A stretch of DNA of 64,000 nucleotides, from contig NC_089436.1 of the NCBI RefSeq assembly GCF_026210795.1, forward strand, positions 1,550,001 through 1,614,000, given 5' to 3'. The translations under genes and the position numbers were made by a program. This DNA is from Rhizophagus irregularis. Taxonomy: Eukaryota. The stretch's first letter is position 1. Each line of letters begins with the position of its first letter. A model generated the notes under the pieces. That model was not told the DNA's origin and searched no databases. It saw nothing but the letters and a program-made list of their open reading frames with translations. Shown here one piece after another: positions 16,392 to 55,504 of the stretch.

Positions 16392-19300
16392 ATGTATCAA
16401 TGTAACTTTTGTAAACGTTGTTTTTCACGAAAACAAGACCTGACCCAATATTGTCACCAGCTTCACACATATACCAACTATTCTCGTACATTAAATTGGG
16501 TTCAGGATCAACAATCAAGTTCTAATAATAATATACGGCAAAAAACTATTGATAATAATGTTTGGAATGAAATTGAAGGTTTAGATATTTTTTTACAAAT
16601 AACAAGTGCTGACGACAAACAAAATAATGAGGTAATTTTCATAATTCTTTCAAATCATTGTAAATTAATTGCTAATTATTAACTGATTTGTTAAGAAATC
16701 AGATTTGAACAATACAGCAGATGCACCTATGGCCTTCAATAAATATGAAAATGATGATTATACAGATGATGAATATCATGAAATTACCCGATCGCGAGAA
16801 AGTAAAAGCATCTCTTCTACAGCATCAAGCGAAGATTTTTGTGGTGTGAGTTTAGCTGATGCGTATAAAGACTTGAATAACAATCCAGAACAAACATTAT
16901 GGCCTAGTGAAACGTACAAAGAATTTATGATGGCTGTAACACAATATCGTCTTTCTGACGCAGCCGCTGATTCTATGTTACGTATACTAAAAAAACATTG
17001 TACTGATCAACTTCCTGGATCTACTAGGAAAGGGCGTACATTTATTGACAATATGGATGTTAAAGGTTTACAATTTAAAGAAAAAGAACTCATTATATTT
17101 GAAGAAGAAATTTATAAATTACATTATAGGCCAATTTATGATGCAATAAAAAGTTTGGTTTCGAATTCTGATTTGACTAAAGATTTTCTTTTCGATTATG
17201 ATGAACAATGGGAATATGGTCTTGTAAGTATTTTTATAATGTATATATTGATGTATTATATTTTAAAAGATTAATAATAATTTTATTCTAGAATGGATCA
17301 CTCGTACGTGTTTATTCTGAACAGAATACAGCAGACTGATGGCGTGAAAGATATAATTCATTTAGCAAAATTTTATCAGTTATGATTTATATTGATGGAA
17401 CTACTCTTGATACTCTTGGGCGAAAATCTGAGTATCCTATTTTCTTAACCCTTGGAAATATTCCAAATTTACATTGCAACTTACCTGATGCAAAAGTTTT
17501 TATCGGATTTTTACCTCATTTAACTACGCGAGATAATAAATTGCGAAATTCAAAGGAATTTAAGCAGAAGCAACGGGATTTGAAGCATCGTGCTTTGAAA
17601 TATTTATTAGGTCCACTTCTTAAGGAGGATGGTATATACTTAGCAGTAAATGGAAAAGTTGAGCACTTTACCATTTATTTGTCTAGTATAATTGCAGATA
17701 TGCTAGAAGCACAGGATATTTGTTGTACTTACAAGTCATATCGTACACGATGTCCTTGCTATAAATGTCTTATGCCCGGTGATCAATTAAATAATATGAA
17801 TATTAAACAGGATATGATAGATTTACGTAATCATGAAAACATGCAAGAAGCTATTGCTTCTCACAATGCAGAAAATTATTCCATTCACGAATATGATAAT
17901 TTTTTCTGGAATTTTAGGTATTAATTTATTTGAATTTATTTGACGATTCCTTTTTTTTTGATTTAATTTAAAATTATAATTTTTTTAATTTTTTTAGAAT
18001 AATGAACATATATGATGCAGCAGCACTAGATCATATGCATTTACAAGAAATCGGATTATTTCCATATATGCTTGATTATACAAGAGGTATGCTCATGCAT
18101 CAGTATGGAAAACAAATAATCAGTAAAATGGACAATCGACTGGCTACTATTACACGATTTAATAATTTAAGAATATTAAAAAAAGGTTATCAACAAGGTA
18201 CAAAATTTACGGGAGGTGAAATGCGAGATGTTATGAAGATTATTGTATTTGTTCTTGATGAGCTGTACACAACAGATAATAAAATCAATAACTAAACAGA
18301 TAGTAATTTATATACTATTGCTTCATGTAAAAATCTTATTATATGTTACATTAAATTTATTAAGATGTATATTACGTCACGAAAAAAGAAATTTAATGAA
18401 GATGATTTAAAAATCTTTGAAGTATGATTATTTCTTTACATAATAATAGTATAATATTACAAATAATTTTTTTACTAATTTGCTTTTTAATATAGCGTGA
18501 AATAATAGATTGGTCTAATGATTTTGTAAATATATTTGCGCAATTCTCCTCTAGTGGACTTCAGTTACCAAAGCTTCATATGTGGAGATATCATACTATT
18601 CATACCATTCGGCGATATGGTGCATTAAATGGGCTGACAACTGAGACGTACAAAACGCTTCACAAAAATTGGATTAAAAATCCATATAGAATGTCTAATA
18701 AAAAGAATACACATAATCAAATGTTAAAGACGGTATGTTATAATGCAATTTTCAGCCAAATAAATGTAAAAGATTTTTTTAACAATTTAAATATATTATT
18801 AGATTCGACGACAAATAATTACAAATACCATTACGAAAAAAACTATAAGTTTGAAACTAAATTCTATGAAATCACTCCTTTGGGAATTGCCAATAAGTGA
18901 AATATATACTTTTCAAGAAAAGCTTAAGCATGAAGAAAATATAAATGAATTGTGTATTGAAGGAATGGAACATTTAATTGCTTGTTTAGATATATACTTA
19001 GATGATATATCTAATGCATCAGCAAATGAAGAAATTTATTTGAAGATTTATGCTAACGGAACACTGTCAAATGGAGAAATCGTATATGCAACAAGTAAAT
19101 TTCATGGTTACGCAAGATTTAGTGACGTTGCAATTGCAATGGGTGATACAGATTACTTAACTGACGGTGGATTATGTTATGGCAAGGCAAGTATTTATAT
19201 AATTTATTTTAACTAAAACTAAACACTATTTAATATTTTTATTTATTTTACAGGTATTAATGTTAATTGAAGTTTCGTTCCTTCCTAATCATCCTTATTT

Positions 19301-19487
19301 ATCTCTTGCTTTAGTACATTGGTATAATTACTATTCTAAATGATATCCCATAATGTATGAATGTCCCCATATGAAATTTGTAAATTATTATGATTTAATA
19401 CCATTTGAATCCATTGCAGGTTTAGTGCATATGGTAAACCGGTTTGATTTTAATAATGAATTTTTCGTAAATAAGTTTATTTTTTGA
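16392..19487 (+). pseudogene. Multi-exon Plavaka-family transposase of element 2
   Basis: MYQCNFCKRCF C2H2-like start; WPSETYKEFM; HYRPIYDAI; IYIDGTTLDTLG...YPIFLTLGNIP; IIADMLE; CPCYKC; DHMHLQEIGLF; PKLHMWRYH; RFSDVAI; NKFIF*. Stops at 17338, 18293 and 19341. Confidence 0.9.
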
Positions 19488-21469
19488 AAATATATATAGT
19501 AAATAGTAGTATCCAATATAATATATAACATTTAATAATAAAGTAATTATAATATTAATAATATTAACAATAATATTCATATTAAATTAATTGAAAAATT
19601 TTTAAAAAAATCCTTAGAGTTTTTTTTTTAAGGATCTTTAAAGAATCTGACAATTAATAAATTCCTAAAAGATCCTTAAAAATTAGTAAAGAATTTTTAG
19701 GATTCCATGAATTTGCGAATCTTTAGGGATTCTATAGAAAATTATGGAATCCTTGTGGATCCTGTTCCAAAAAATATTACTGATGATAGCATGGCATTTT
19801 ACATCGCGCTCCTTTATATGTAACAGTCACATCATCTGCTTTGAGCATATCCGCAAGAAAAAAAGAAATTTGTGCAGCAAATGTTTTTGCTTGTCCATTA
19901 ATCCCAAAACATAACGTATTAGGTTTCTCCAGTAAAGGCCAAAGCATGATATTAAAGCATTTGTGAAATATTTCACGCTGCAAACTTCAAAAGACTTCGG
20001 TAATTTTAATGCCTGAATCTTGAACTTTAGGCAAAAAACCTAAAAGTATTTTAGATTCTAGTAGGTTTCAAACCCAATTTGGAACATTTCTAAGCGTTAA
20101 AAATACTGGATGGCCTGATGTCTTGCCCAGTCCATCGAAAGTGGTTCTATTCAAATATAAGATGATAGACAATAGGTGATTTAATAGCGGAAGAATCTTT
20201 TCCGTTTCCAGCCACCAGTCACCTTCATATGGCTCACCAAACACTCTTATTTCGCTTCCATCATCCTAAGAATATAAACAACCAAAAATCTGAGTGATGA
20301 TCTTTAGTTTTTTTTAGTCATTCATAATTATTAAATTTACCCTTTTTTTCTTTAGAATTCCCTTATAGACAAAATTATTAGCTACTTCTGGTCGTTGCAG
20401 AAGAGCTTGAATAGCGCGAAATATGGGACAATAGTAGAATGTAATGTCAATACTGCTGTAGGTTGAAACAACTTTTTCTTTGAAGTCTAATGAAGTGAAG
20501 TTATTTGATTGAGATGGTCTTTGCCATTTTTGGTTGATTTCGGTAATGGAGATTCTTCCAGATTGCTATATTTATTAAAGAATTTAATTATTTGATCTCC
20601 AATTTTATTAGATATATTACCCTCTACAATTAATCTCATGAAATCTCTGTATGCATCATTTGGCCACTTTGCTACGCATTCTGGTAAATTTTTTCCTTCA
20701 ATAGCATCTAAAGCATCATCTAACGATGCTCCTTGAAGATCTTCAGGATCTAGATCAATATTGTCGAGATTTACTGGTATTTCTGTTCCCAACTCCTCAA
20801 AATTTTCTTCAAAAATTTCTTCAGCTCTCTCTTCTATATTTTCTGTTTTTGATCTTTTTCGCAGATTATAATGTGGTTTAGATTCTAAATTGTCTGCATC
20901 TTGAGTTGGAATTTCATTGATTATTATATCCTACATCTCACCAATATTATCATTTTGGTATGTGGATTTTTCATGCAAAGTAAATGTATCTGGCATTGTA
21001 ATAGGTGTGTTCCATAACTGAACATCATGTTCTAGCATAACCGCTGTTCTTGATAATTGTCGCGAGAATCTTTGAACGTGTTCACTTGGTTCACTTGGTT
21101 GAGAAGTTGTTGTTCTTTTATGGTATTTGGCATTAGCGTGCTGTCTCAAACCGCTGGGAGTTGAAAAATATCTTTTGCAAATTTAACATTTATATCTGAC
21201 CATTTTTCTTTAAAAATCAATGCGAGTTTAGAAATTAATGCAGGAAAATTTTTTCAATTAGTTTCACGCGAGAAATATTTATGAAGATTTACTTTTGGTA
21301 TATTTTTTTTTTACTGATTATCAAGCGAATATAAATTTTATTACTGATAATTGATTATTTTTGTTTACTAAAAGATAATTAATTTATTTACTGATTAGTA
21401 ATTAATTTTTTTCATTTACTGATATTTTTAATTCAGGAGTAACTGATTTTTTTACCAATTCATTAACAA

Positions 21470-21790
21470 TTAATTTATTTAATTTACTGATCCTTAAATA
21501 TATTTTAATTCAGGATTAACTGATTTTTTTAAAAAATTCTGGCAAAACTTTTAACTTTACACAATTTTTCAATTATTTATAATGTAAGAATTTTTTTATT
21601 TTTTTTCGGTTGGCTGAATCGTCGCAATAATTAATTTATTTAATTTACTGATCCTTAAATATATTTTAATTCAGGAGTAACTGATTTTTTAAAAAAATTC
21701 CAGCAAAACTTTTAACCTTACACAATTTTTCAATTATTTATAATGTAAGAATTTTTTCATTTTTTTCGGTTGGCTGAATCGTCGCATATT
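21470..21790. repeat. About 160-bp direct duplication in the intergenic region of element 1
   Basis: Two near-identical copies ending ...ggttggctgaatcgtcgca at about 21626 and 21786. Confidence 0.75.
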
Positions 21791-21887
21791 AACATTTTTT
21801 TTTCAATTTTCGAATTAATTGTTATTTGAATTTTTCTCTGCAATATTTTTCCTATACAAATTTTACAAATTTAGAATTTAAGTGATT

Positions 21888-23684
21888 ATGGCGTCTAAAA
21901 GGTCAAAAAATGCAAAAAAACTCAAAAAAAAGAAAGCAAGCACTTGACGTTCTTGAAGGATAAAGAAGAAAACAAGCACTTGACGTTCCTGAAGGACAGA
22001 ATGAAAGCCAACAAAATATATTTGCACAAATGTTATCAGGTAGTTAGTCGTCAAGATGCTGATATTTTGCAATTTAACATTATAATTAACTTTTGCTGAA
22101 CGCCAACAGTAGAATCTTCAGAAAATTCCTAAAGATCCACGCAGAGATTGTGAAAAATCACCTACTGGTCCTTTCGTACTCATTACTCCATTTTGATGTA
22201 GATCGTGAAAGATTTTTAGTTAAATCTGTTTCTTTTACTCCAGCAAATCGTGAGAAATCCTCAACAAATCGCGAGAATTTTTTAGTCAGGACTGCGCATA
22301 CTGAAACTTCCGTTTCAACTACATTGACACCATCTGTAACTTCTATAAGTTATGAAAGAACTTTGAAAATGCCAACTCCCATACTTAGTCCAATGCAAAT
22401 TGACCTTGATAAAGAAATTGATTATTATAACGTCGATGACGATGATAACGAAGAATATAATGATAACCGCGATAAAAGTGATACCCGTGAGCCTTTACCA
22501 AAACCACATATTGTAGAGGGTGAACGTTACCTAATTGTGAAAGAGTTTAATTATGCCATGAATGTATTAGATGGAAAGGTAAACGCCATCTACAAACTGT
22601 GTTGATATATTGGAGATCAGCAACAAAAAAGTATTCAAGATACGCAAAATGTTGCAAAAAGTGATGTATTAAGCGATGATTTCTGGAATGTAAGTTAATT
22701 AAAAATTATCAACTTGATTTTAATCTAAAGATACTTATAATAACCAAATATAAAAATGTAGCTAAAGAACTTATTCCAACGTCTTTATATCATTCAGATA
22801 TAGAGTACCGAAAGGCTTTAGAAACATATTTATCTAAATATGCAGAATATTACATTAAAAATATTGGGCAAAACGCATGGATTTCTTTATTTTCAGATAA
22901 ATTATTGGCAGAGGTATGTGAAATATTAATAATCGTTAAAAAAAAGTATTTTTTTATATTTATTTAACTTTTTTTTTAGATAAAAACTAAATGCAGAAGC
23001 AGGAGAAATGATTTTGCCGCAAGTATCAGGAGTGCCATGTTTTCCGTCTTTGGAGAACAGCGATTGAAACGCATAGATAACAATTCTCCTTCTATGAAGA
23101 TCGCTGAATGGAAACAGAATCAAAAAACGCGTAATGCATTTTATGAACTTTTCAAAAATCATGATATTCTAACGAAAATTGGCCATTCAGTTTTCAAACA
23201 ATATAGGGATAAAGAACTTCCTTTTACACATTGTGCGTATATTCTATCAATATGTGACATCTTGTTAAATCCCAATAGCTATAGTATTAAGTGTAATGAC
23301 AAGTCTGTTATGAAAAGAGTCAAATTTTTTCTAGTAAATAATTTTCGCAAATTTTCGCAGTTCTTTTAATCTTTTAATATTTTACAGATATTAATCTATA
23401 ATTAATTAACAGCAAGCGTTTAGAAATAAAACGCAAATAACTCCTCGTATAATGGAGGAATTAGCTGAAAAAGAAGCAAAAGAAGTTAGTCAAAGAACCA
23501 ATTAATACGAGTCAGCAGTCGCAGAAGAGAGCAGCGATTCAGTTAAAAATGAAAATTATGATGATTTTGTAAGTTAAAGTTATTATTTATGTTCGATTAT
23601 ACACTTAATTGAATTATTTTACTAAGCTAAATCATCATTTTTTTTTAGATTAATAATCTAGATTCGCAATTTCCTCAGGATTAA
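21888..23684 (+). pseudogene. Multi-exon accessory gene of Plavaka element 1, degraded
   Basis: MASKRSK start, GT-AG introns, exon IRSAMFSVFGEQRLKRID...CAYILSICDILLNP homologous to the accessory gene of element 2; internal stops. Confidence 0.65.
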
Positions 23685-30414: not shown

Positions 30415-32200
30415 CTATGAGTCAAATAATATCATGAATCTTGGAAGTGTGGCCTATAAATTTAAATTTGAAATTAATCAATTAATAAATTAATCAATTA
30501 ATCAATTATAGATATTAACGTAATAAGATGTAATACGACGTAAATACGTACCTTATTTTTGTTAACCACGAGAATGTAATTATGTTCTTGAGCGACAATA
30601 TCAACAACAAACATAACTTTAGTATGATGATTACCATCAGTATAATCACGAGATATTAAAGCGCTATTAGCAAACCACATTTCTATTAAGAAAAAGAAAG
30701 AAAGAAATTAATTAACATTAATTAAAGGGAAGCAGAATTCTTTTCATACTTACTTTTGTTATGCTTTGAAAATTTCTTCCTATTACCATTTTGAATAATA
30801 CCACACATTCCACAACCTTTTTTACAAAAAGATTTTTCAGATAAAGGATAATTTCTTTCTAAAAAACGATCAGGATCACAACCAGTAGAAGTAGTAGTTC
30901 CATGAAACATGCTATAAGTTACATCATCAACATTTTTTCCAGCAAGTTTTGCAACTTTATTTTTATACTTTTCATGAAGTTTTATTAATTTAGATGGCAT
31001 ATCCAATCTAATTATTCCCTTAATAACACCACGAGGTATTTCAGAATAAAACATTTTTTTAACAGTAATATAATCATTATCACTTTTTTTCAACAAAATC
31101 ATTTGAGTTCTCGTAAGAAGAGGAAAATTACTCTCAGATATAATAGATTTAGATTTATTATTAGGTACACTGTATTGTGAAGAACGACCTGAAGGACCTG
31201 GTAAACGAACATTACAAGAGTCACAAATCGTTCTTGTTGGATGATTCATAAAAGTACAATTAAAACATTCCACTTCAATAAAACTTATACGACGGATTTG
31301 AATTTCAGTAGATGATGAAGGAGAAGGATTTGAAGAATTCGAAGAAAGATGTATTGAAGATGATAAAATTGGTTGAAATATTAAAGAAGAAGTAGAAGAG
31401 ATAGATTCAGGAAATATTTTTATTTTTTCATCAATATTTTCATCAATTTCTTCAAAAGATTTTTCTTCAATAATAGGAAAAGCATTATATAATTCTTCAT
31501 GTATAGATTCTAATTTATTTTCATTTTCTTCTAAATCAACAGTTAAATCATTTGATTCATTCCAATTATTTTTAATTTCATTTAAATCTTCCAAATCTTC
31601 CAAATCATTAGTTGATTGATCATCATTTTTACATAATTGATCAAAATCATCAAATATAAAATCAAAATTAAAAGAATCTTCAATTAATTCAGGTAAAGTA
31701 ATTTTAGGTTGATGATAATGATATTTATCATTATGATTATTATGATTATTATTATTATTATTATTATTAAAATTTGTCGTTATACTTATTCGTGATAAAC
31801 GAGAACTTAATCTTGTCGTTATACCAAAAAGTGAATTTCTTCTAGAAGAATTTAATTTTTCATATTTTGATGATTTGAATTTTGAAGTTTTATGACCTTC
31901 GATAGTTGATAACATGGTTAAAGATTTCGTATTCTCACTATTTAAAGTACCACTAGCTTCAATATTTTCTGGTAACCATATTAAATTTCTACTATTTCTT
32001 TTTGAACTTAATCCATTATCATCCAATGTATTTTGAGTTATTTTTGGTATTTTATCATTCCATACTATTTGTTCATTAGTAGATTCATTATCATCATCAG
32101 TTGGTGTATTACTTTTTGTTGTAGTAACCAATTTTTTGGTCCATGATTTTAATTTAACTAGTATTTGTTTCTGTTTCTTTTTAGGTGAATTTTGATCCAT
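30415..32200 (-). CDS. PARP-like ADP-ribosyltransferase-fold protein with RanBP2-type Zn finger (paralogue A); exons 32200-30754, 30682-30552, 30453-30415
   Basis: CFNCTFMN...CDSC finger; MFHGT...C...CGMCGIIQNG; spliced KMWFANSALISRDY...MFVVDIV...ILVVNKNKATLPRFMILFDS*; canonical GT-AG introns keep the frame. Confidence 0.8.
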
Positions 32201-34760
32201 ATGTGAGAAAAAAAAAAAGGAAAAAAATAAAGAAAAAAAAAATAATAAACAAAAAATAAAACAAAAAAAAATAAAAATAAAACAAAATAAATAAATAAAT
32301 AAAACGAAAAAAAAAAGGGAATATTTTTTACTTAAATATATATATAAAGAAATTTTTTAATTTTTTTTTTTCTCAAAAAAAAAGGGTTGATAAGGAAAAA
32401 AAGAAAGATGCATGAAAGAATAAAAAAAAAAGAGAGAAAAAAGAGAGAACTTTTTTTTTTAAAAAAAAAAAAAATGGAAAATTTCAAGAGGTATATTTAT
32501 GTAAATAAACGGGATTACAATTTCAAAAACGGAAATCTTATTTAATTATTAACCAAATTTGGTACATACTAACAAAATATAAAAAAAAAAAAAATTTTAA
32601 AAATACTTATATAGATATTTATACCTATATATATATATATAATATTTTTAATAAGAATTATGTTATTATAAACATTATAAACAACACATGAATATACATA
32701 TTTAAAATAATTTTTTTCTTTTTCTTTTTTTTTTTGTCCTTTATACAAAATTTTTGTTATGTACGCCATACATATATATATATCTACGGGTATCCGGCTT
32801 AAATATTAACAATGGCCAAAAAATAGAATGTAAACTTTAACTTACCTAAACTATCATTAAGAAACCAATTATCGCGTGGTAAATGAGTAGTTGATAATAA
32901 AAAAAAAAGAATTTTAACCTTTAAATTCGAATAAGGGGATAAGAATGTATTGCATTGCATTTTTCTCCAAAAGTTTTCATTAAAAAGAACCGTTCGCAAA
33001 AATAAAACTTTAAAATAACATTGCATTACTTTCTGATATTGACAACAATCCGAACAATCTTTTTCTTTTTAAAAAAAATATTGAAGAAAAAGATCCGATT
33101 TTATTAAACTATTTAATGTTATTATACTCCATACTATTATACTTTACTACTTTACTAGGTAACTCTCTTTAACCATAAATGATCCAAACATGTCCCTTAC
33201 ATATTTGATTACTTTTTTACCCCTGGTAAGTTTCAGTTATTTAATATATATGGCGATTTAGTTACGTCAATAATTGTTCAGTAGTTGAAGGCTTGGAAGG
33301 TGACTTGTTTTGCCCAAAAACAATTAAACAATAATAAATCACGTGATCATTTACTGATATTCCCATTTGGACAATGCCGTTATACACTTATACCGATTGA
33401 GAAAAAATTTATGATTTTTTTTTTTACATTATAATTTATTAATTTATTAATGCATATTTCCCGAACGGGAATTACATCAATTTAGAACTTTTAAAATAAT
33501 TGGTTGGTCTATTTGGTCTAATTTGTTTATTTTGTTTATTGGTCTATTGTATTTAGTTTCTAATTCTGTTGGTCAACTCGAAAAATTCACGTACGGATCT
33601 TTTTTTATGGTTCCCACGTGATTATACGAAACATTTTTTAATTTTAAACAACAAAATTGATGGATAATAAATCGATAAAATGATATGATGGATAATAATC
33701 AAATAATCGATAAGTGATAAATGATAATAATCGATAAATGATTGGAATAATAATCGATAATTTATATCGATAATTTATAATCGAATAATCGAATGATAAT
33801 AAATAATCAATGAATGATAAAATTTATTATTATTATTTATCTGTAATTAGAATAATTCATATTATTATGAATAATTTTAATTTTTTTTTAATTAAAAAAA
33901 AAAATAAAAAAAAAAACATTATTTTTTTTTTTCATAGTTTCATATATTTTTTTAATAATCTTCCTTTTTTTTTCTCTCTTCATAATTTTTTGGAAAATTA
34001 CACATGAAATATGCATCATTGTTATTTATTTACAAAGTTATAAATGATGCAGTTTGTAAAATAGGATTTCAACTTTTTTATTGTTTTTATATAAATATAT
34101 AAAGGAAAAAAAAAAAAAATTTCAACCGACCCTTTTTCATAAAAAGATAATGTAATGGAAATAATAAATAAAATAAAATAAATAAAATAAATAAAAAAAA
34201 AATAAATCCCGAAAAAAAAAATGGATAATTCCCAAATAGAAAAAAATAATTCAAATGGGAAAAAAAAATAAATTCAAATGGAACAAAATGGAAATTTTTT
34301 TTTTTTTACCAGAATTTAAAATTTTATCAAAACTTTTTTTTTTTTTACTATCATAACTCCATTTTTATTTTATTCATTTAAAACTGAAATATTTTATTCA
34401 TTTTAATTTAAAAAAAAAAAAAATTTTTTTCGTGGTACATACCTTTATCGTAATAATATGCACATTAATAAAATACCTTTTTCGGATTATTTACCGTCAT
34501 ATAACATATATAACAAACTATGACTCACCGGTTCACCCATCCCTTTCTTTAATAAAATTTAATGGGGATTGGACTGCGCCTCATGTATTAATGATCCAAT
34601 CAATTTTCTTTTTATTATTAATATTCCGAATTCGAATTAGAGATAAAAAAAATTGCAAATCAGGTAAATATTTTGAAAATCAATGAATGATTGAATGATA
34701 ATTATGATAAATTTTATATCACATTTTTGATTACCCGTTCAAATATTAAATAAAAACCTT

Positions 34761-34773
34761 AAAAAAAAAAAAG

Positions 34774-34820
<47 letters not shown>
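34761..34820 (+). repeat. Poly(A) tract of about 60 bp
   Basis: Nearly pure A run with a single G. Confidence 0.9.
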
Positions 34821-34823
<3 letters not shown>

Positions 34824-35366
34824 AGAGAATATAATTTAAATTTTTTTTTTAAAATAATTTTTTTTTTTTTTTTTTGAACAAAAAAAAATTAAAAATAAAA
34901 ATAAAAAAAATTAAAAATAATAAAAAGAATAAATTTTTTTTAAAATAACATTTTCAACATTATATGTATGTATGCATCATTATAAAAATTTTATGGGTCA
35001 CTTTTTTTTTTTCTTTGTCAATTTTTTTTATTCAAGTGTAACGTTTGTAGAACGATAAACAACTTTCAAGAGTTTACTTAAAGTACAAACTTTTTTACAA
35101 CCCCAAAATGTAAGGACCAACTTACTTTTAAGGTATGTCGGATCATTTTTTTTTTTTTTCTTCTTTTATTTCTCTTTTGATCTTTTCTTGTATTCGTTTA
35201 ATTTTTTATATATATATACATAACATATATATATATATATACTTTTTGTGTTTTTTTTTTTTTTTTTAAACTTTTTTAAATTTCTTTCGATAGATAAAAA
35301 CGTTAACCAAATTTTAACTTTATTTTTTTTTTATAGTGCTTATAAAAAAATTCAAAAAAAAAAGTT

Positions 35367-38300
35367 ATGGATTGTACAGAATTTCCATCAAATTCTTCTT
35401 CCTCTTCTTCTTCACAATTTACAAATACAACTTCTTTCTCACCATCACCGTCAACTCAATTTTCTCCTACATATTATACTACTTATTCTCCTTATCCTTT
35501 ATCATCATCTTCATTATCTAACACTTCATCATTTCTTAATAAAATTAAATCTATTAGTCAACAACAAAGAAGAAATAATCAATTTTCAATATGTAAAAAA
35601 TCCGATTGTAATAATAGATTTATTAATGATGATGGTAATAAAATTGGGGGTTATTGTAGTATGATGTGTCAAGTAAATGATTGGACTCAATCTAGTAATA
35701 ATAATAATAATAATAATAATTATAATAATAATCATAATAATATTACTGTATTAAATGGTGAGACTCGTTTAAATTCTAGATTAAATAATAGATTATGTGG
35801 AAATTTTTTAAATTCTCAAAGTGGAAATGGAACAAATTTATTAAATATATCAAATCCTTCAAGAATTACAAAGAGGCAACCAATTAAACAACAACAACAA
35901 CAACAACCATTTAAACGTACAAAATTATTTAAATCCGGTATAAATACTTTAATACCTTCTACTACAACTACTACTTCTTCTTCTTCTTCTCCTTCTTCTT
36001 CTTCTTCTTCTCCATCTCCTTCTTCATCATCTATAACAACAACGAATACTACATCAAATGGGAATATTATTATGAATAATAATGATACTACAATATCTTC
36101 TTCTCCTTCTTCTTCTTCATCCATTATGCCAAATTTATCATTAAATTCTTTACCTGAAAATTTTAACTTATCTTCTTCTCCTATTCCTCCTCCTTCTACT
36201 TCTTCTACGGAAGATTTCTCATCAAATCAATTTAGTACTTTGGATTATCCTTGTGATCATAAAATTTATAATAATCAAAATTTATATACTTTGGATAATC
36301 AAAATTCTACTCAACAACAACAACAACAACAACAAAAAATTGATCAAAATCAAACCTCATTAAATTCTAATAATAACGTTAATATCGTTGAAAATATTTC
36401 TTCAAATTTTACTGATTCTATTAACAATAATGATAATTATTGTAACGTTTATTGTGGTGATTCTTATAATCTTTCGGATTATGATGTTACAACTGATTAT
36501 AATGTTACTGAAAATGATTTATATTTTAATAATGATGGAATTGAAGATAATTCTATTTATTATTCTCAAACTCCACAATCATTACAACAACCACCACAAC
36601 AATCTCAACCACAACAACAATCTCAATTACCACAGCCACCACAATCACAACTGCCACAACCATCACAGCTACCACAGCAATCACAACTACCACAACAATC
36701 ACAACAATCACAACAATTACAACAACCACCTTCACAGCAATTACAATCTCCTCAATTACAACAATTACCATCACAACAATTACAATCACCATCATCACGA
36801 CAACAACAACAGTTACAACAATTGCCTCCACAACAACTATCATCGCAACAATTACAATCACAACAACTACCATCGCAACAATTACAATCACAACAATTAC
36901 TATCCCGACAATTACAATCACGACAATTACAATCACAACAATTACAATCACAACAATTACAACCACAACAATTACAACCACAACAATTACAACAACCGCC
37001 TCCACAACAACCATCGCATCAACCACAACAGTTGCAACAACTACAACCACAACAATTACAGTCACCATCACAACGACAATTGCAACAATTACAACCACAA
37101 CAATTACAGTCACCGTCACAACGACAATTGCAACAATTACAACCACAACAATTACAACAATTATCACAACAGTTGCAACAACCGCCTTCACAACAATTGC
37201 AACAATTGCCATCACAACAATTACAACAACAATTGCAACGACCGCCTTCACAGCAATTGACTTCACAGCAATTGACTTCACAATTATTTACTTCACGACA
37301 ATTACCTTCACAGCAATTGACTTCACAGCAATTTGCCTCACAACAATTGGCCTCACAACAATTGGCCTCACAACGATTGGCCACACAGCAATTGGTCTCA
37401 CAACAATTGGCCTCGCAGCAATTGGCCTCGCAGCAATTGGCCTCACAACAATTTGCCTCACAACAATTTGCCTCGCAACAATTGGCCTCACAGCAATTGG
37501 CTTCACAGCAATTAGCTTCACAACAATTGGCTTCACAACAATTGCAGCAACAACAACAACTACAACAAATGCCACCTCAAGTATTCCAACGATTACCAAC
37601 ACAACAATTACCACAGCAACAGCAACAATTACTTCAACAGTCTCAACAACAGTTAAATTTTAATCCAACATCAAGATTGGTTGTAATGACAAGATGTTCA
37701 GTTTGTACATTAATATGTTATTCTAGCTCTGGGATATGTGAATTATGTCAAGCTCAACTATCTTCACAAGGATTTACTCCTTATACAAATGATAATAACA
37801 ATAATTATTATGATTATAACGTTCAGGCTTCACGAATTCAGGCACAAGCAGTTAAAGCAGTACAAGCTGCAAAAGCAACCCAACTTCATGCCGCACAAAT
37901 TCAAGCAGCAAGAGCTGCACAAAGTCGGGCTGTTCAAATTCGAGCATTACAAATGTTAAGATCTCAACAAATTCAAAGAGCTAGAGCACAACAATTTCCA
38001 TCCCAATTTCAAGCTCAAATTCAAGCTCAAATTCAAGCTGCAAAAATGGCACAAGCTCAAGTAACACAAACACAACTTAATCAATCACAACCAATATATA
38101 ATAATAATTATGGTATGCCACCTACATCTTCATCCGATACATCATCTTCGGATACTTCTGCTAATGCAATTATTTCAACAAATAAATCAAAATTAGCAAA
38201 AACTCAATTAAAAGTTCTTCCTTTACATGATAATGAATTTATTCAAATACAAAGATATTTCCTTAAAGGATTACCACATGCTCGTATACATACTATAATT

Positions 38301-38966
38301 AAGTTACAAATGCCTACTAAATTAGTTGAAGCTCATGAACAATACAAAAAAACATTATTAAATAATCCTTCATATGGTTCTAATATGACGACAAATAATT
38401 TAATAAGTAGTATGAAAAGCAATAACAATTTGGATAAACATACAAATACAATGTTCCATGGTACAAAAATTAGTTGTAATCCTCAACGATTTATTAATGG
38501 GAATAGTAATTTTTGTTTATTTAGTTGTGGTATGTGTGGTATAATACAAAATGGTAATCAAGGAAAATATAGTAGATTTAACGGAAGTAAGTACTGATCT
38601 TTTTTAAATAGAGAGAGTGGAATTGAAAGTCTTTTTTAGAAAAAAATTAATTATTATTTTTTATTTTAGGAATGTGGTTTGCTAATAATTCTGCCATATC
38701 ATTGGGTTATTGTGGTTTATCAACTTCTAGAACTATGTTTAATTGTACTCCTTTTTCTTCTAAAAATTCTTTAATGGCTATGTTTGTTGTTGATGTTGTT
38801 TCTCTTCAAACTAGTGATATTATTATTGTTGATGTAGATGCGGTAAGTTTATATTTTTTTTTAAAAAAAAAAGAATTTTAATTTTATATGAATTTAATTT
38901 ATTTTTTGTTACTTTTAATAGGCTACTTTACCTAAATATTTGATATTATTTGAACCTGGATTTTAA
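35367..38966 (+). CDS. PARP-like ADP-ribosyltransferase-fold protein with Zn fingers and a long Q-rich region (paralogue B); exons 35367-38586, 38670-38842, 38922-38966
   Basis: N-terminal CKKSDC...YCSMMC; CSVC...CELC finger; MFHGT...CGMCGIIQNG; spliced RMWFANNSAISLGY...MFVVDVV...IIIVDVDAATLPKYLILFEPGF*; same intron positions as paralogue A. Confidence 0.82.
36570..37640 (+). repeat. Coding CAA-rich repeats: (SQQLQ)n, (PQQLQ)n and (SQQLA)n 15-bp units
   Basis: Visible in both DNA and translation; explains the spurious N-, V- and C-rich overlapping ORFs. Confidence 0.9.
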
Positions 38967-39487: not shown

Positions 39488-40600
39488 ATGACTTTTAACA
39501 CTAAACTGGTTGATTTATTGAGAGGATCTTTATGTAAATGCTTTTCCAGTTGAAATTGATTCTACAAGGGTATTGGTACCCTTAAGACAACTATCAAGAA
39601 TAATGCGTAAACATCAATGGTCTATATTCGTAGGCATTAATCGAGTTAATTGAGGAAAGTCATTATGGACCAAATGATCCAGCTTATAATGGTTGTACAA
39701 AGCAAAGGATCTTAACTATTCAAAGTCAATATTCACCTTGGAGATATCATAGACGAGAATATTGTTTTGTATCCAAGCTGATCTTAATAATACTTATTGG
39801 TCTGGAAATGAAAAACCTACAAAATTAGCGATAATGAGCAACCAGTACATATTCTCCATGCAACTTCCCATTGTTAAGTCATAAAAAATTTAGTTCAATA
39901 TGATATATGACAAAGATTATGGTTCCAGAATAAGATGAGCTTTTTAAGAGGATGGATTGTTGAAATTTGGTTTTGGAGATAAGATAATAAACTGGCCAAA
40001 AAGCTGCAATGTCTAAAAAAAAAAGAAACATTAATATTATTATTTTGCATCTGAATCTTGTACTTAAAGTAATCCACCTTTTTAGCGATGGCGCCTCACT
40101 CTCCAAAGGAGCAATGTATTGTAGATCCAGAAATATTTGCTTCCATCCAACATCAAGGAAGTAGAATTACCTAATTACATTTTGAAATTTTATTAACGGA
40201 TATTAACGATAAAGATATTCATGAAGAGATACCAAAAGAACTACAAATTCAATATCTTTCAGACTCGTCAAAAGAGTCTGACGGTGATATCAACGGAATC
40301 GTATACGGTCTCCATCACCAGCTTTTTTGTGCAACTACAGTAAAATACAAGAATAAGATCAAGGTTGTAATTTTCCTCGTTGATACTGGGTCTACATAAC
40401 CTATATCAGCGAGGAAGCATTAAACGTGTTTGGCATATTATTAGAGCAAATTCAAATTAATAGTAGACGAGTGATGATTTTGATGTTGCATTCGCACTTT
40501 AAGGAAATTGGTGTTATGAGGATGGAGTTTTGATGTTAAATGCAGATCTACATGTTTGTAATAGTAACTTTTTCTTAAATTTTAATCCAATCTGTCACAG
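39488..40600 (+). pseudogene. Degraded gene with Crinkler-like N-terminus and retropepsin-like C-terminus
   Basis: ...TLNWLIY*EDLYVNAFPVEIDS... near 39500; KVVIFLVDTGS, then a frameshift to TYISEEALNVFG near 40360-40435; many stops. Confidence 0.45.
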
Positions 40601-48300: not shown

Positions 48301-49305
48301 GATCAGCATCTCATTAAATTGATCATTTTTTTAAATTACACAATTCGTTCTATGTAGATCCAATAGATAACTCATTTTTAATACTCTAAATAAGCCTTTA
48401 AATTACCCATGGATAAATTATTTCATCCTTTTAGGGTTGTAAATGATAACATGTGCGATGATTACTCGTGAAAACATTATTTGTGATACTAAATTTCGTC
48501 ATTAAACCTTTCATCTTTCGGAGAGAAAATCGCGTATCTTTATACGATTATTGTAAAGTTCTTGGCAATTTTATGAATTAGTCATTCATATTGTATAATT
48601 GGATTAATTTATTTTCATTAAATTTTATATGAGTTAAACTTAACAGTGATAAAAAGAATATGATAAATGATCACAATTCGCCAATCATTTTTTTTCTTTT
48701 ATTTGCTACGCCACGAAAATTTAAATTTTCTGCGCCACGAACACAAAATTGTTGCCAAGAAATTCGAATCTGCACAATTAATATCACCATCAAAAAAAAA
48801 AACTTTGTCCTTTTATATCGCGTTAATCACGTGAAATAGCTTGGCAAAAACCATCGAATTATTTATATTGGAGTCCTTTTTTTCTTTACACTAGTTTCCT
48901 TAATTGAACAACCTGCTTTTTTTAATATTGGCGTTAATAGGTCTACTTTTTTGCTTGGCATTATTAAATCATGTGATGCCAAGAACAAGTACTTATAGAA
49001 TCCATAAATCGCAAATGGAAAAATATATATTTTTTTTTTTTTTGGACGCTTGAAATTCAGATTAAAAATTTTTTTTAAAAAAAGAAATAGGAAGCAGTGA
49101 AATAATAATATCTTTCAAAATAATTTTACTCTTTAAGATATATGGTTTTTTTATTGAATGATTTTCGGTAGAACACGATTATATAAATGGTTTATTTTAG
49201 TACACTTATACCTTTAATGGATAATAATTCAATTTAAATAAAAAAAAAATTTCTTTTCTTTCAGTCGTAAATTTCAAATTTTTTCACATTAATATTAGTA
49301 AAGCT

Positions 49306-50190
49306 ATGTCACCATCGCCATTTGTTTTCATAACTTCAAAACCAACTTTATTTCCTTCAATCATTTTTAGTATCCTTTTCCTGCTTGCATCAAGCCTTCA
49401 CCTTTTTCGTATAATACAAACCCGACGTCGTGTCTACAAATTATTATTCATATTTAGTTTTTTAAGAACAGTATTATTTATTATACGGATTGCATGGTCA
49501 AAAAACCAAGATTCATTTGAACTTGCGATATCTTCTGGAATTTTCACTGCAGGCGCATTTTTCATAATAATTTTAGCAATATATATTCTTTTAGAGGATT
49601 GGATTCTTACCCTCTCAAATGCAATTCAAATTACGGATAGTAATTCAAATTCACAAAGGCGCTCAAAATTAACAAATTATGAACATTACACCTTAAAAAC
49701 GGCAGAATGCCTTCTTCCAGCATTTTCAGCATTATTCGTAGTAGGATCAATAAAAGAATTCAATACAGATATGTCTGACGAATTGGACACTTCAATAGAA
49801 AAAGGTGATACCATAATAAAATTTTCCATGATAAGTTTCTTAATTAGCGTATCACTTTATATGCTTCTTGTCACATATTTCGCAATAAAGTATAGTAATA
49901 TACCTATTCACAAACAATTAAAGGTTTTGGTATTATATATTGTTGGAGCTTTATTATTGATTGAGCTGGTTTACGGAACTTTTATGATTTTCTCTCCGCC
50001 TACCGATAAGATTAATAAGTATAGTTGGGTCTTTTATTTGTTCGAGTCACTTCCAGAGGTTTTAATTTTGGCTATTTTGGGGGGTGTTATTTTAGGTGAA
50101 TGGTTTTTTGAGGAAGAGAATATTGAATTGGTTGATAGCATTAAAACTGTTTCAATTGGGTCGATTGGGAATGGAAATGCAAGCGTCTGA
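49306..50190 (+). CDS. RTA1-like seven-transmembrane protein
   Basis: Intact single-exon 294-aa ORF with about 7 hydrophobic segments; FSFLRTVLFIIRIAW and FYLFESLPEV resemble fungal RTA1-type proteins. Confidence 0.72.
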   Translation: MSPSPFVFITSKPTLFPSIIFSILFLLASSLHLFRIIQTRRRVYKLLFIFSFLRTVLFIIRIAWSKNQDSFELAISSGIFTAGAFFIIILAIYILLEDWILTLSNAIQITDSNSNSQRRSKLTNYEHYTLKTAECLLPAFSALFVVGSIKEFNTDMSDELDTSIEKGDTIIKFSMISFLISVSLYMLLVTYFAIKYSNIPIHKQLKVLVLYIVGALLLIELVYGTFMIFSPPTDKINKYSWVFYLFESLPEVLILAILGGVILGEWFFEEENIELVDSIKTVSIGSIGNGNASV

Positions 50191-51234: not shown

Positions 51235-51771
51235 ATGTCTGATACAACTTATTCTTATCCCTCAACTCCCCCGCCGCAAGAAACCCCGGCTCCACCGCCA
51301 ACTCCTGCAACTCCATTATCATCGACAACATCAATTGAAAAATTTACTTTTACAGAACGACAAGGAGACTTATTCACTGATGCACCACCAACTGACGCGT
51401 TAGCTCATTGCGTATCTCAAGATCTTAGAATGGGTAAAGGTATCGCATATATTTTCAAGAAAAAATATGAAGGATTAAATGAATTGAAAGCTCAACAATG
51501 TAAAGTCGGTCAAGTTGCTTATCTTCAACGTGATAATCGTTATATTTTTTATTTAATTACTAAATATTATGTTTACGATAAACCTGATCGTAAAGAATTT
51601 GAAACAAGTTTGGTGGAATTGAGAAGGTTGTGTGAACAACTTGGTGTTAGAGGTTTAAGTGTTCCTCGGATTGGAACTGGATTGGATGGGTTATCTTTGA
51701 GTTATGTTAAAAGTGCTATTAACGAAGCCTTTGAAGGGAGTAATATCAAAGTTACTATGTTTTATTTGTAG
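51235..51771 (+). CDS. OARD1: TARG1/OARD1/Poa1-type macrodomain ADP-ribose glycohydrolase
   Basis: GDLF, LAHCVSQDLRMGKGIA..FKKKY, YLITK, PRIGTGLDGL; Pro-rich N-terminus; intact. Confidence 0.9.
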   Translation: MSDTTYSYPSTPPPQETPAPPPTPATPLSSTTSIEKFTFTERQGDLFTDAPPTDALAHCVSQDLRMGKGIAYIFKKKYEGLNELKAQQCKVGQVAYLQRDNRYIFYLITKYYVYDKPDRKEFETSLVELRRLCEQLGVRGLSVPRIGTGLDGLSLSYVKSAINEAFEGSNIKVTMFYL

Positions 51772-51991: not shown

Positions 51992-52552
51992 TTATTCCCA
52001 ATAATCAGGATCATAATTTTCAATTAGTTTAGGATCAGCCTTATTTTGACTCTGCCATTCACTGATTCCACCTTGTAACACTTGAACTTTTTGATTAGTT
52101 CCCATGTTTTCTGTTACTTCTTTGAAAATTCTTGCACATTTTGGCCCACGAACTTGAGATAAAGCGCATGTGAAAACTATTCTAGGTACTAAATAACAGA
52201 AAGTAAGAAGATAAAGATTTATTTGATTAAATAAAAAATATTCTGATAGTTTACCTTGGTTGTATTTGGAAATAAGACCATCAACATCATCAAGAAATTT
52301 TGTAGAAGGGCTGTTAATGCTATTTGGTATATTACCTCCCTATTTTGAAGGAAGATTACAAAGAAAATAGATTGAGAAGAATCTTGTTGTTAAGAATTTT
52401 TGATATAAAAATATAATTTTAAATAACTGACAAGTATTTACTTCGTAATCATCATCTCTAACATCAACCACCAAATAATCTTTTCCAGGAACTTTAGTAG
52501 TATCTTTTATAATCTCAACTAATTCAGATGGTTTGATGAATTCGTCCGACAT
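51992..52552 (-). CDS. YCH1: Cdc25-like rhodanese-fold phosphatase/arsenate reductase (Ibp1/Ych1/Acr2 family); exons 52552-52442, 52339-52255, 52188-51992
   Basis: YLVVDVRDDDYE|GGNIPNSINSP...|VPRIVFTCALSQVRGPKCA...LQGGISEW...ENYDPDYWE*; CX5R loop; possible in-frame upstream ATG at 52756. Confidence 0.88.
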
Positions 52553-55504
52553 TTTTCCTCGTAGTAAAAATGTTTGATATTTATTAGACTGCCTAAGGTG
52601 ATCAAGTTTATGAAAAGGTGAATTGTAACAGTTAGCTTGACTTGAAAAAGAATAAGAAAAGATAGAAATATATAAACGTTTTGACGAAAAATTATTAAGG
52701 TTTGAATTGGAGAAAGAATAAAAATAACGTGCAAGATTTGCAAGAGAGTAAGTCATCGAGTCATTTATATTATCAAGCCGTACCGATTATTTATGTGGAA
52801 AGGTCTTACAGAAAAACGCCCTTATACGGATACAGATGTGGATGTCATACAATAACTCGGCAAGTCCTTTTCTTTGACTTTTGCGTTAGGATGTAATTAT
52901 CTTAAAGTGGAAACTGAGATGCCTATCAATAACTCTAATACGCAGAAATATTGTGTCATTTTAATTTTTTTTGTTAACAATATAAATAATATGTTATGTT
53001 TTATCTTTAGATATTGATCAGGTTTTTAATTTATTACTTCTATTATTAATAAATTAGGATTATTAAATTTATGTTATGTATAAACGAAACTATACTTTAA
53101 TTGATGGATTCAATGCTTATGTTCTATCTCGGCCAAAATTATTTGGGCACTTTGTTTTGCCAAAATTATGCAGATCATCACATGTTGATGTAATAACATG
53201 TAAATACCACACTATTTAAATTGTCTTAATAATAATAATAAGCAAAAATTATGAAAATCCAGTTACTAGAACAAAAGATATTATAAAATAAACTTCTAGA
53301 CAATTTAAAGTATAATTACATGCTAAATATTAATCCCATAAATATAAAATTATTATCCTTTAAATCCTTTAATAAGACAAGTATAATAAATTCAATTTTT
53401 AAAATTTAAACTATGCAAATCTATATAAACTTCTAATACTTACATAGTATTTACAATTGTATAAGAATATATTTCTACAAAAAATAAAAAAAAAATATTT
53501 TATTCTTTAAAATATTAAAAAAATTTCTTTTTCCTCCTTAATTATCTTTTTTTTTTCCTTAATTATCTTTAAATTTTATGTTAAAAAATGTATTTTTACA
53601 AAAAAATAAAAAAAAATGTTGAAAATATTCTTAAATAAATTAATCAATATTTATCTTGGTAAAACTTACCAAAGGACTATTTAAATAAAATTGCTAATAT
53701 GTACTGCGCTTTTCTAATTTATTTCTGTTTACACTGATTAGTGATTAGTTATAAATAATCTAATGTGATCAATTTTTTTTCAAAACCAATTTTGATGACA
53801 TTTATTTGACTGGTTATCAGACTAATATAAATATGACTAGTGAGTCAAAAATAAACTTATTCTTGGCAAACTTTTTAATATCTTTTAAGCATAAATGTAA
53901 ATACAATTCAATTACAATTTATAACTTTAAGAAATAAATATTGCAAATTTCATGAAACTTATAATAGACAGAAATGGAAAATAAAATCTAATAATGAATT
54001 GAAAGACATGATTGAGAAACAGTTTAATCTAACAGGTGATACTTTTATTTTGATGGAATATGCAATAAATAAACTAAATGATATGGATTTCAAATTAAAA
54101 GTTATGAAAGTTAATCTAAATAACATAAAGACTAGATTGAGCAAAACGAATGCTTTGCTAAATAATACAGTCAGCACTGTTAATGTTCTAAGAGATGAAT
54201 AGGTTTGAACAGAAATTTTAAGGACTTTTCAGAATTGGATTGGAATTTTTTTTTAATAAACTAAATACTAAGTTCCAGAGAGTGAGAGGCAATTAGGATG
54301 GTATTAATAAAGCACTTAAAGATTATTATTACAAAAAAATTGACGTGAATAATTAATATGAATGTGTCATAAAATTAAATGAAGTATTAAGTAAAATTAA
54401 TCTGAATTTCAAAGACTGTATTGTTAATGAAAATGAAAAGGGATAGTAATGACATATTTCATTATAAATGGTAGAAAAGAGCAAAAGCAAGAAAAATATT
54501 AAATCAATACTTTTCTAATAACTTTGAAAAATTTTAAATATCATTACAAAAACTTTTTAGCACAGACATATGAAGTACTTGGAATGGATATAGTATCATT
54601 TAATAGTTTAATGGTATGTACAGCCATTTATTTATTGTTACTTTACCTACATTTTTTAATTTTGTATTATAACCAATAAATTTTAATTTTATAGGAATTA
54701 CTTTAATAGTCTTTACAAAAAAAAATAAAACTATTATGTTCAAAAAATTGTTGAAAGAAACAAATATCCTCTCCAGGTTTTTTAAAGATAATTTTTATTA
54801 GGAAAAATTACAAAAAATTTCTTAAAGCTTGCATAAGATTAGTTAAAGTAGTAATTTCAGTTATAATTATAATAGTAATTGCTTAAATTAGTTTTTTTTT
54901 TAAATGAAATTCTATGTGATTATTTATGTATTCATTAATGTAAATAAACACTAGTATAAGTTATACAGAAAATAATCATATCCATAGTCACTATATTATT
55001 TTTTAATCATACAGAATATCATAAGCTATGTAATAAAATTAATATAGTTTTTTTCGCTTCTATCAGTAAAAGTTTCATTCATAGTTTGGGCATTTATTTT
55101 TTATATATATATGGATATGAGGTGTATGTAATTTATCAGAATATCATTGATCTTTGAGTTCATCAGCCAAATTTTCGCTTGATTATACAACTTTTTAAAA
55201 ATAAAATAATCACTTCATCAGGAGTTGTATTTTTTATAAAATCTATGCAACATCTATAAACCTATATATATCCAATATAAATTTGTTATATAAATTTTTA
55301 TAAATCCATAATATATATAAATAATTTATTTATTTTTTACATAAATATAAAATTATTATAAATAATTCATATAAAATCTATATAAATATAAAATTATTTA
55401 AATATAAATATATGTATAATTATAGCCAAATAAATTTATACAAATATTTTGAATAAAATTACTTAAATATAGAATTATTTAAATATAAATTTATATATAA
55501 TATA

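What the first reader, a model, noticed from the sequence alone, without database searches (positions are those of the whole stretch)
30415..38966. Head-to-head pair of atypical PARP-like ADP-ribosyltransferases with an H-W-I triad
Seen: two intact divergent genes 3.2 kb apart, with unrelated low-complexity N-termini but the same C4 zinc finger, HGT...CGMCGIIQNG, MWFAN..S..Y, MFVVD and ATLP motifs and identical intron positions. Known: diphtheria-toxin-like ARTs use H-Y-E (poly) or H-Y-I/L/V (mono). Here the G-I-Y-F Tyr aligns to Trp and the Glu to Ile in both paralogues, and the loop regions look very short. Inference: an ancient inverted duplication of a minimal mono-ART or NAD-binding pseudoenzyme, possibly a co-regulated sensor/executor pair like head-to-head immune genes.
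Basis: partly seen in the sequence, partly recalled or inferred. Interest (0 to 1): 0.8.

Follow-up and report, generated by a model that had tools for sequence, protein, structure and literature searches.

The report
Tryptophan-triad PARP family of mycorrhizal fungi
Two back-to-back, transcribed genes of a mycorrhizal fungus encode proteins predicted to fold like human PARP10-15 enzymes but with tryptophan where a tyrosine normally lines the NAD pocket, a change shared by an apparently undescribed family across these fungi, and they likely tag proteins with single ADP-ribose units.

Summary
Gene A (538 aa, minus strand) and gene B (1145 aa, plus strand) lie head to head, 3,166 bp apart, are spliced at matching sites, and are Rhizophagus irregularis genes. 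AlphaFold models of both C-terminal domains match PARP15/10/12/14 (Z 18.6; E 2e-11, 2e-10). Triads read H433-W485-I519 and H1031-W1076-I1124. The oddity is not confined to this pair: a search gave 76 representatives (2 spurious); all 21 with a named organism are Glomeromycotina. In 31 complete domains Trp is 30 of 31 and the third residue is never acidic, while His, Gly, Ser, the stacking Tyr and a four-Cys insert are kept. The donor loop is 5 residues short and about 30 residues of the acceptor half are missing. Both proteins carry an NZF-like finger. Consecutive locus tags suggest the linkage persists in Funneliformis caledonium and, with a B-like paralogue, in Entrophospora candida. Sensor/executor roles are unsupported: both genes have the same parts and alleles barely vary. 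Intron sites are family-wide, so they do not date the pair. Best reading: intracellular mono-ADP-ribosyltransferases, activity untested. No paper searched describes an H-W triad.

The parts
30754..32200 (-). Gene A exon 1 (codons 1-482): low-complexity acidic/Asn N-terminus, NZF-like finger, first half of ART domain
30552..30682 (-). Gene A exon 2: W485 strand, S493/Y496, MFVVD strand, I519 strand
30415..30453 (-). Gene A exon 3: last strand and stop
31214..31267 (-). Gene A NZF/RanBP2-like finger (residues 312-329; Thr-Phe present, Ser at the third ubiquitin-contact site)
   Evidence: model pLDDT about 90 over residues 311-330; Pfam zf-RanBP E 1.7e-5 in orthologue P0003
30418..31114 (-). Gene A ART domain (residues 363-538, introns included): H433 at 30904-30902, W485 at 30677-30675, I519 at 30575-30573; Cys insert C441/C459/C463/C466
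32201..35366 (.). Divergent intergenic region with both 5' UTRs; one RNA contig shows a GT-AG 5' UTR intron of gene B at 34966-35050
   Evidence: joint seen in 1 of 4 runs
35367..38586 (+). Gene B exon 1 (codons 1-1073)
35592..35669 (+). Gene B N-terminal Cys finger, C-x4-C...YCS-x2-C (residues 76-101; TRASH/MYM-like, label recalled); pattern found in 27 of 76 representatives
36579..37676 (+). Gene B glutamine-rich repeat region (169 Gln in residues 405-770)
37695..37748 (+). Gene B NZF-like finger (residues 777-794; Thr-Leu, Leu at third site; Thr-Phe in F. mosseae and F. caledonium orthologues)
38199..38963 (+). Gene B ART domain (residues 945-1145, introns included): H1031 at 38457-38459, W1076 at 38675-38677, I1124 at 38819-38821
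38670..38842 (+). Gene B exon 2
38922..38966 (+). Gene B exon 3 and stop
   Evidence: same ending in P0091, P0092

Best explanation
Both genes are expressed members of a Glomeromycotina family of cut-down PARP-type domains with an H-W-[I/V/T] triad, and they likely work as intracellular mono-ADP-ribosyltransferases that are predicted to bind NAD+ and are likely steered to ubiquitin-marked targets by their NZF-like fingers. Shown: gene structure, splicing, family breadth, conserved residues. Predicted: PARP10/12/14/15-like fold. Inferred: His, Gly, Ser and the stacking Tyr hold nicotinamide as in active PARPs; Trp stands in for the triad Tyr as the aromatic wall of the pocket; loss of the Glu limits them to single ADP-ribose transfer; the missing acceptor loop and edge strand leave the acceptor face open for a bulky substrate. 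The two genes are old paralogues that stayed linked, possibly under shared regulation, without a need for sensor and executor roles.
For: Fold: Foldseek E 1.8e-11 to PARP12, VIA Z 18.6, rmsd 2.9 A over 156 residues to PARP15 and Z 18.1, 2.1 A over 147 to PARP10; gene B domain (via P0091, 189 of 191 identical) E 2.1e-10 to PARP12. Sequence profile hits PARP13/14/12/15 at E 1.5e-8 to 1.7e-6. In 31 complete domains: His 31, Gly 31, Trp 30 (1 gap), Ser 31, Tyr 28/Phe 3, third residue I21 V5 T3 Y1 S1, although members are only about 25-45% identical. PMC7532188 (passages) states that NAD-binding residues other than the Glu are conserved in active PARPs and that inactive ZAP and RCD1 lack two or more. 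NZF Thr-Phe/Tyr motif binds ubiquitin (PMC11372445, passages); among 35 such fingers in 14 of 76 representatives TY 10, TF 4, SY 5, SF 4, and Met/Ile/Leu/Val at the third site in 28. No signal peptide or membrane segment by hydropathy. Both genes spliced in 4 of 4 runs laid.
Against: No activity was measured. The triad Tyr is replaced by a larger residue, with no precedent found in print, and the model's pocket could not be inspected for an open or closed state. About 30 residues of the acceptor half are absent; in PARP15 the acceptor-loop region matters for catalysis (PMC12572374, passages). Neither window protein reaches Pfam PARP; only 6 of 58 members match it weakly. Gene A's finger has Ser at the third ubiquitin-contact site, both fingers lack the NZF Trp, B's lacks the Asn, and the finger is degenerate in Funneliformis A orthologues. 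Most representatives (62 of 76) have no NZF-like finger in the models held.
Confidence: 0.5

Rival explanations
1. The domains are pseudoenzymes, like PARP13, TASOR or plant RCD1: they keep the fold to bind NAD+, ADP-ribose, RNA or a protein partner and act as scaffolds in condensates built by the low-complexity N-termini.
For: Triad Tyr and Glu both changed; acceptor half shortened; best sequence-profile hit is a PARP13 domain variant (E 1.5e-8); long disordered N-termini (pLDDT under 50 over 281 residues).
Against: His-Gly-Thr, Ser and the stacking Tyr are nearly invariant, unlike TASOR, where all but one key residue is lost (PMC7532188). The Tyr just before the conserved Ser in PARP13 aligns with Ile here; by my recalled numbering this is the residue that helps close the site in PARP15/PARP13 (PMC12572374).
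Confidence: 0.27
2. They are active, but on nucleic acid ends or water: RNA/DNA ADP-ribosyltransferases or NAD+ hydrolases used against viruses, transposons or endobacteria.
For: Open acceptor face; basic donor loop (median net charge +3 in 59 domains) and domain pI 9.7 and 9.4; the closest folds PARP10 and PARP15 modify phosphorylated RNA ends in vitro (PMC8053099, passages); a TARG1-like hydrolase lies 12 kb away (E 2e-37); copy number varies among species.
Against: Fingers carry the ubiquitin-type Thr-Phe/Tyr signature rather than pointing to RNA; basic charge is weak evidence; linkage of the TARG1-like gene in other species was not testable.
Confidence: 0.15
3. A and B are a co-regulated functional unit (heterodimer, or sensor and executor) like head-to-head immune gene pairs.
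For: Head-to-head here; consecutive locus tags in F. caledonium (10091_t, 10092_t, both on a 43,323-bp contig) and E. candida (12485_t, 12486_t; a second accession pair also close); three representatives hold two ART domains in one chain (P0008, P0010, P0024); PARP15 needs ART-domain dimers for activity (PMC12572374).
Against: No asymmetry of pocket residues or of finger content; alleles near-identical (A domain 175-176 of 176 in 4 of 4 records; B domain 189-191 of 191); start codons 3.2 kb apart; B is covered about 2 to 10 times deeper than A in 4 of 4 runs, a poor measure; the Entrophospora neighbour is a B-like paralogue, sister to B only at SH-aLRT 80; in F. mosseae and F. geosporum the orthologues are on different contigs (assemblies are fragmented).
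Confidence: 0.08

Closest known systems
Human mono-ARTs PARP10, PARP12, PARP14, PARP15 (ARTD clade 3)
   Same: Fold (Z 18.6, 18.1), N-terminal strand-helix lead-in, FHGT strand, FA strand, Ser and stacking Tyr, hydrophobic third residue.
   Different: Trp for the triad Tyr; donor loop 11 residues against 16 in PARP14; 28 residues after the third core strand against about 59 in the PARP14 chain; four-Cys insert after the His strand; NZF-like and TRASH-like fingers instead of macro, WWE or CCCH domains.
Pseudo-PARPs PARP13/ZAP, TASOR, plant RCD1/SRO
   Same: Same fold (Z 17.4, 13.2, 13.3); altered triad; long disordered regions.
   Different: These lack two or more NAD-binding residues (PMC7532188); this family keeps His, Gly, Ser and the stacking Tyr.
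Fungal PARP1-type and PARP-Ubc (PARP6-like) families
   Same: Fungal PARP-fold proteins; PARP-Ubc also links ADP-ribosylation and ubiquitin.
   Different: No WGR, regulatory or E2 domain by Pfam. The kingdom-wide preprint 10.64898/2026.07.25.740670 lists H-Y-E, H-Y-I, H-Y-L, H-Y-Y only; 'H-W' and 'tryptophan' occur 0 times in its main text.
Stand-alone PARP-domain clusters of Ascomycota, Basidiomycota and plants (ESM Atlas)
   Same: Nearest clusters by language-model features (0.94, 0.93, 0.93). I recall that many of these carry a Cys insert after HGT; not checked, no sequences given.
   Different: They reach Pfam PARP (73-97% of members) and did not appear in the phmmer search with gene A exon 1; their triads were not seen.
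Head-to-head sensor/helper NLR pairs and fungal allorecognition gene pairs (recalled)
   Same: Divergent paralogues that stay linked.
   Different: No domain asymmetry and no allelic polymorphism here.

Membership tests
ARTD/PARP catalytic domain | PARP-type ART fold | tested here: met
   Predicted models, domain pLDDT mostly over 90; top 18 VIA rows are PARP-family domains, Z 12-18.6; Foldseek
ARTD/PARP catalytic domain | His-Gly on strand 1 | tested here: met
   31 of 31 complete domains; aligned to PARP14 FHGT
ARTD/PARP catalytic domain | Triad Tyr on strand 2 | tested here: not met
   Trp in A, B and 30 of 31 complete domains; aligned to the Tyr of PARP13/14
ARTD/PARP catalytic domain | Ser and nicotinamide-stacking Tyr after strand 2 | tested here: met
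   Ser 31 of 31, Tyr 28 and Phe 3 of 31; aligned to PARP13
ARTD/PARP catalytic domain | Pfam PF00644 at gathering score | tested here: not met
   No hit for A or B exon 1 or P0091; 6 of 58 members weak, best E 2.6e-5
ARTD/PARP catalytic domain | NAD+ binding and ADP-ribose transfer | not testable with these tools
Poly-ARTs (PARP1/2, tankyrase; H-Y-E) | Catalytic Glu on strand 5 | tested here: not met
   Ile in A and B; I21 V5 T3 Y1 S1 of 31, no acidic residue; register partly recalled
Clade 3 mono-ARTs (PARP7, 10-15) | Macro, WWE, CCCH or RRM accessory domains | tested here: not met
   None by Pfam in A, B exon 1 or 58 members. PMC4245714 notes RanBP2 fingers in Rhizarian clade 3 proteins
Clade 3 mono-ARTs (PARP7, 10-15) | Phylogenetic placement inside clade 3 | not tested
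   No canonical PARP sequences were held; trees hold family members only
Pseudo-PARPs (PARP13, TASOR, RCD1) | Loss of two or more NAD-binding residues and a closed pocket | tested here: inconclusive
   His, Gly, Ser, Tyr kept; Tyr to Trp and Glu to Ile; pocket state not seen
NZF ubiquitin-binding finger | C-x2-C-x10-C-x2-C with Thr-Phe/Tyr | tested here: inconclusive
   Spacing met in both; Thr-Phe in A, Thr-Leu in B
NZF ubiquitin-binding finger | Hydrophobic third contact, Trp before first Cys, Asn between Cys pairs | tested here: not met
   A: Ser, no Trp, Asn present. B: Leu, no Trp, no Asn (definition PMC11372445)
Sensor/executor gene pairs | Divergent orientation and conserved linkage | tested here: inconclusive
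   Divergent here; consecutive tags in 2 other species, orientation unseen; different contigs in 2 species
Sensor/executor gene pairs | Asymmetric domains and polymorphic alleles | tested here: not met
   Same pocket and finger in both; alleles 99-100% identical

The most novel reading that the evidence does not exclude
This is the first natural His-Trp class of ADP-ribosyltransferase: minimal, active enzymes with no acceptor loop, spread through all arbuscular mycorrhizal fungi, and the A/B pair has stayed linked since before Glomerales and Entrophosporales split because the two act together, with a nearby TARG1-like eraser, as a ubiquitin-triggered ADP-ribosylation circuit in defence or symbiosis.
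Probability: 0.2. Interest if true: 0.8.

Novelty: new variant of a known kind. Interest (0 to 1): 0.55.

Why it matters
The triad Tyr is treated as fixed in active PARP-type enzymes, and fungi are described as having PARP1-type and PARP-Ubc families. An active H-W domain of about 175 residues without an acceptor loop would widen the rules used to call an ART active or dead and show what that loop is for. It would also give arbuscular mycorrhizal fungi, symbionts of most land plants, a multi-copy mono-ADP-ribosylation system that Pfam largely misses. If inactive, it is a new pseudoenzyme family under strong constraint.

Tried and rejected
Heterodimer fold of the A and B domains: score 0.00 in two runs, no verdict, alignments not used; no evidence either way. 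No whole genome is held, so R. irregularis paralogue number and genome-wide context are unknown. Synteny by DNA: metagenome scan gave 2 loci from 208 pattern matches, one intronless 1.6-kb family member and one 35-residue match that looks like chance; viral and prokaryotic scans gave 0 of 23 and 0 of 17. Profile search for longer relatives covered only 637-2000 aa and gave 3 known proteins. phmmer of P0007 against PDB found nothing relevant; NCBIfam nothing. No tool printed an alignment over the third triad residue. The run index listed no holder on record as RNA; only X24 is on record as RNA. Expression of the TARG1-like neighbour was not obtained. P0079 and P0080 were judged spurious. My regex tally of truncated models misclassified several rows, so I read them by eye. 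I dropped the idea that the PARP15 Y598L mutant shows tolerance at the triad Tyr: by recalled numbering Y598 is a different Tyr. The careful tree did not finish; quick trees were used. Earlier scan findings: nothing relevant. Literature: no H-W triad (0 papers), no paper on the locus ids (0), 1 unrelated paper for PARP plus Rhizophagus; searches listed none on this family by title. One review on ART natural history was not held, and the preprint's Table S6 (Gigaspora homologues) could not be seen.
Full report
Observation. The two genes are as described. Gene A runs 32200 to 30415 on the minus strand in three exons (538 aa); gene B runs 35367 to 38966 on the plus strand in three exons (1145 aa). 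The start codons are 3,166 bp apart, all introns are GT-AG, and the introns fall at the same aligned sites with phases 1 and 0. The C-terminal regions share 83 of 194 aligned residues; DNA similarity between the genes is limited to simple repeats and a few short stretches. Gene A is identical to an R. irregularis record (538 of 538) and B fragments match R. irregularis records fully. Laying four runs showed spliced transcripts of both genes: intron 30454-30551 in 7 and intron 38587-38669 in 25 raw poly-A reads, and in contigs of the three other runs; intron 30683-30753 shows as a piece break; the last intron of B was not shown on both sides. Only one of the four runs is on record as RNA.

Fold. 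Pfam does not recognise either protein as PARP, and only 6 of 58 relatives match PF00644 weakly. A profile of 37 relatives finds PARP13, 14, 12 and 15 in the PDB at E 1.5e-8 to 1.7e-6 and tankyrase weakly. The AlphaFold model of A has pLDDT mostly above 90 over residues 361-538 and a second confident patch at the finger. It matches PARP12 at E 1.8e-11 and PARP15, PARP10, tankyrase 2 and PARP13 at Z 18.6, 18.1, 17.4, 17.4; bacterial toxins score under 5. The B domain, folded from P0091 (189 of 191 identical), matches PARP12 at E 2.1e-10.

Active site. The profile alignment puts Trp on the Tyr of the PARP13 and PARP14 GxxYFA strand and keeps the following Ser and Tyr in register. The third residue is Ile519 in A and Ile1124 in B; this rests on the modelled strand order and a recalled count from the conserved Pro, since no tool printed that part. 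The donor loop has 11 residues against 16 in PARP14, and 28 residues follow the third core strand against about 59 in the PARP14 chain. The models go from that strand to the third-residue strand through about six residues, so the acceptor loop and one edge strand appear absent. Four Cys after the His strand (C441, C459, C463, C466) are conserved and likely bind zinc (inferred).

Family. A phmmer search with A exon 1 over 1.84 billion representatives gave 76 hits, two of them spurious. I looked up 25: 21 have an organism and all are Glomeromycotina (Rhizophagus relatives, Funneliformis, Gigaspora, Dentiscutata, Acaulospora, Diversispora, Entrophospora, Ambispora, Geosiphon, Paraglomus); 4 have none. 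The other 51 were not looked up. My pattern cut 73 domains from 69 of the 76. In the 31 with an intact last exon: His 31, Gly 31, Trp 30 (one gap), Ser 31, Tyr 28 or Phe 3, third residue I21 V5 T3 Y1 S1. Over all 73, 57 have Trp (3 doubtful alignments); of the other 16, 15 are models that stop, skip or drift at that strand and one second domain has Phe. So H-W-[I/V/T] defines the family. Nine models read through at intron site 1 and about 15 read through or end at site 2, in distant members, so the intron sites are family-wide and do not date the pair. No relative was found in viral or prokaryotic contigs, by a close-pattern scan only.

Other domains. A and B both have a C-x2-C-x10-C-x2-C finger; B and its relatives add an N-terminal Cys finger, a pattern found in 27 of 76 representatives. 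NZF fingers bind ubiquitin through Thr-Phe/Tyr plus a third hydrophobic residue (PMC11372445, passages). Among 35 fingers in 14 representatives, TY, TF, SY and SF make up 23 and the third site is Met, Ile, Leu or Val in 28. A has Thr-Phe but Ser; B has Thr-Leu and Leu. Ubiquitin binding is thus plausible for the family and weaker for these two. There is no signal peptide or membrane segment by hydropathy.

The pair. A orthologues form a clade at SH-aLRT 99 spanning Rhizophagus, Glomus, Funneliformis, Gigaspora, Cetraspora and Entrophospora; B orthologues group with Acaulospora members at 91, sister at 80 to a paralogue clade with the same fingers (46 chosen rows, quick tree). A and B together as one clade is neither shown nor rejected (p-AU 0.41). 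In F. caledonium the orthologues are 10091_t and 10092_t, each on a 43,323-bp contig. In E. candida the A orthologue 12485_t is followed by 12486_t, a member of the B-like paralogue clade, and a second accession pair lies equally close. Orientation there was not seen. Against: in F. mosseae and F. geosporum the orthologues are on different contigs of fragmented assemblies. Alleles are nearly invariant, both genes keep the same pocket, and B is covered more deeply than A in all four runs, a poor measure. Linkage looks old; a sensor/executor split has no support.

Mechanism. Active PARPs keep the NAD-binding residues other than the Glu, while ZAP and RCD1 lack two or more and TASOR nearly all (PMC7532188, passages). 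This family changes the Glu and swaps one aromatic residue for another, and holds the rest fixed at 25-45% overall identity. I therefore favour NAD+ binding and single ADP-ribose transfer to proteins, with the fingers bringing the enzyme to ubiquitin-marked targets (0.5). A pseudoenzyme is the main rival (0.27). Nucleic-acid modification or NAD+ hydrolysis is possible (0.15): the donor loop is basic, PARP10 and PARP15 domains modify RNA ends in vitro, and TARG1 reverses both protein and nucleic-acid marks (PMC8053099, passages); a TARG1-like gene lies 12 kb from B, which may be chance. A working heterodimer has precedent in PARP15 dimers (PMC12572374, passages) but little else (0.08).

Novelty. 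The kingdom-wide fungal PARP preprint (10.64898/2026.07.25.740670; abstract, passages and one section read) covers PARP1-type and PARP-Ubc families and H-Y triads only; its supplements were closed and may list Gigaspora members. PMC4245714 (passages) does not mention Rhizophagus. Searches for H-W triads and for the locus ids gave 0 papers; some searches were seen as listings and showed none on this family. One database entry is auto-named as a PARP-domain protein. Subscription journals are mostly not searched. Verdict: a new variant of a known kind, real and testable, with function unproven; interest 0.55.

Noticed in passing
window 51235-51771 (+): Intronless TARG1/OARD1-like macrodomain hydrolase (E 2e-37 to human C6orf130), 12 kb from gene B; a possible eraser. 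Expression and conserved linkage not obtained.
   Followed up: partly
window 49228-50190 (+): RTA1-like membrane protein (Pfam RTA1 E 1.3e-5).
   Followed up: no
window 51992-52786 (-): Intron-split gene that reads like a Cdc25/arsenate-reductase rhodanese (motif recalled).
   Followed up: no
window 1135-4200 (-): 1021-codon ORF that reads like a primase-helicase of a large DNA transposon or viral-type element (recalled resemblance).
   Followed up: no
window 6421-23369: hAT-like transposase fragment (E 0.006) and several ORFs resembling Plavaka-type transposases (recalled); the left half of the window is transposon-rich.
   Followed up: no
P0008, P0010 (Diversispora eburnea), P0024 (Ambispora leptoticha): Family members with two ART domains in one chain; the second domain of P0024 has Phe for Trp and lacks the Ser.
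   Followed up: partly
alignment A1 members: 3 of 58 members match Pfam MSC (E 7e-17) and 2 match HeH/LEM, suggesting fusion to a Man1/Src1-type nuclear-envelope protein; members not identified.
   Followed up: no
P0086 (R. irregularis RhiirB3_533068): Short B-like copy, 74 of 93 identical to B, so R. irregularis has further or partial paralogues.
   Followed up: no
window 39520-39880 (+): One annotation (P0082) splices gene B into downstream sequence instead of exon 3; likely a mis-prediction.
   Followed up: partly
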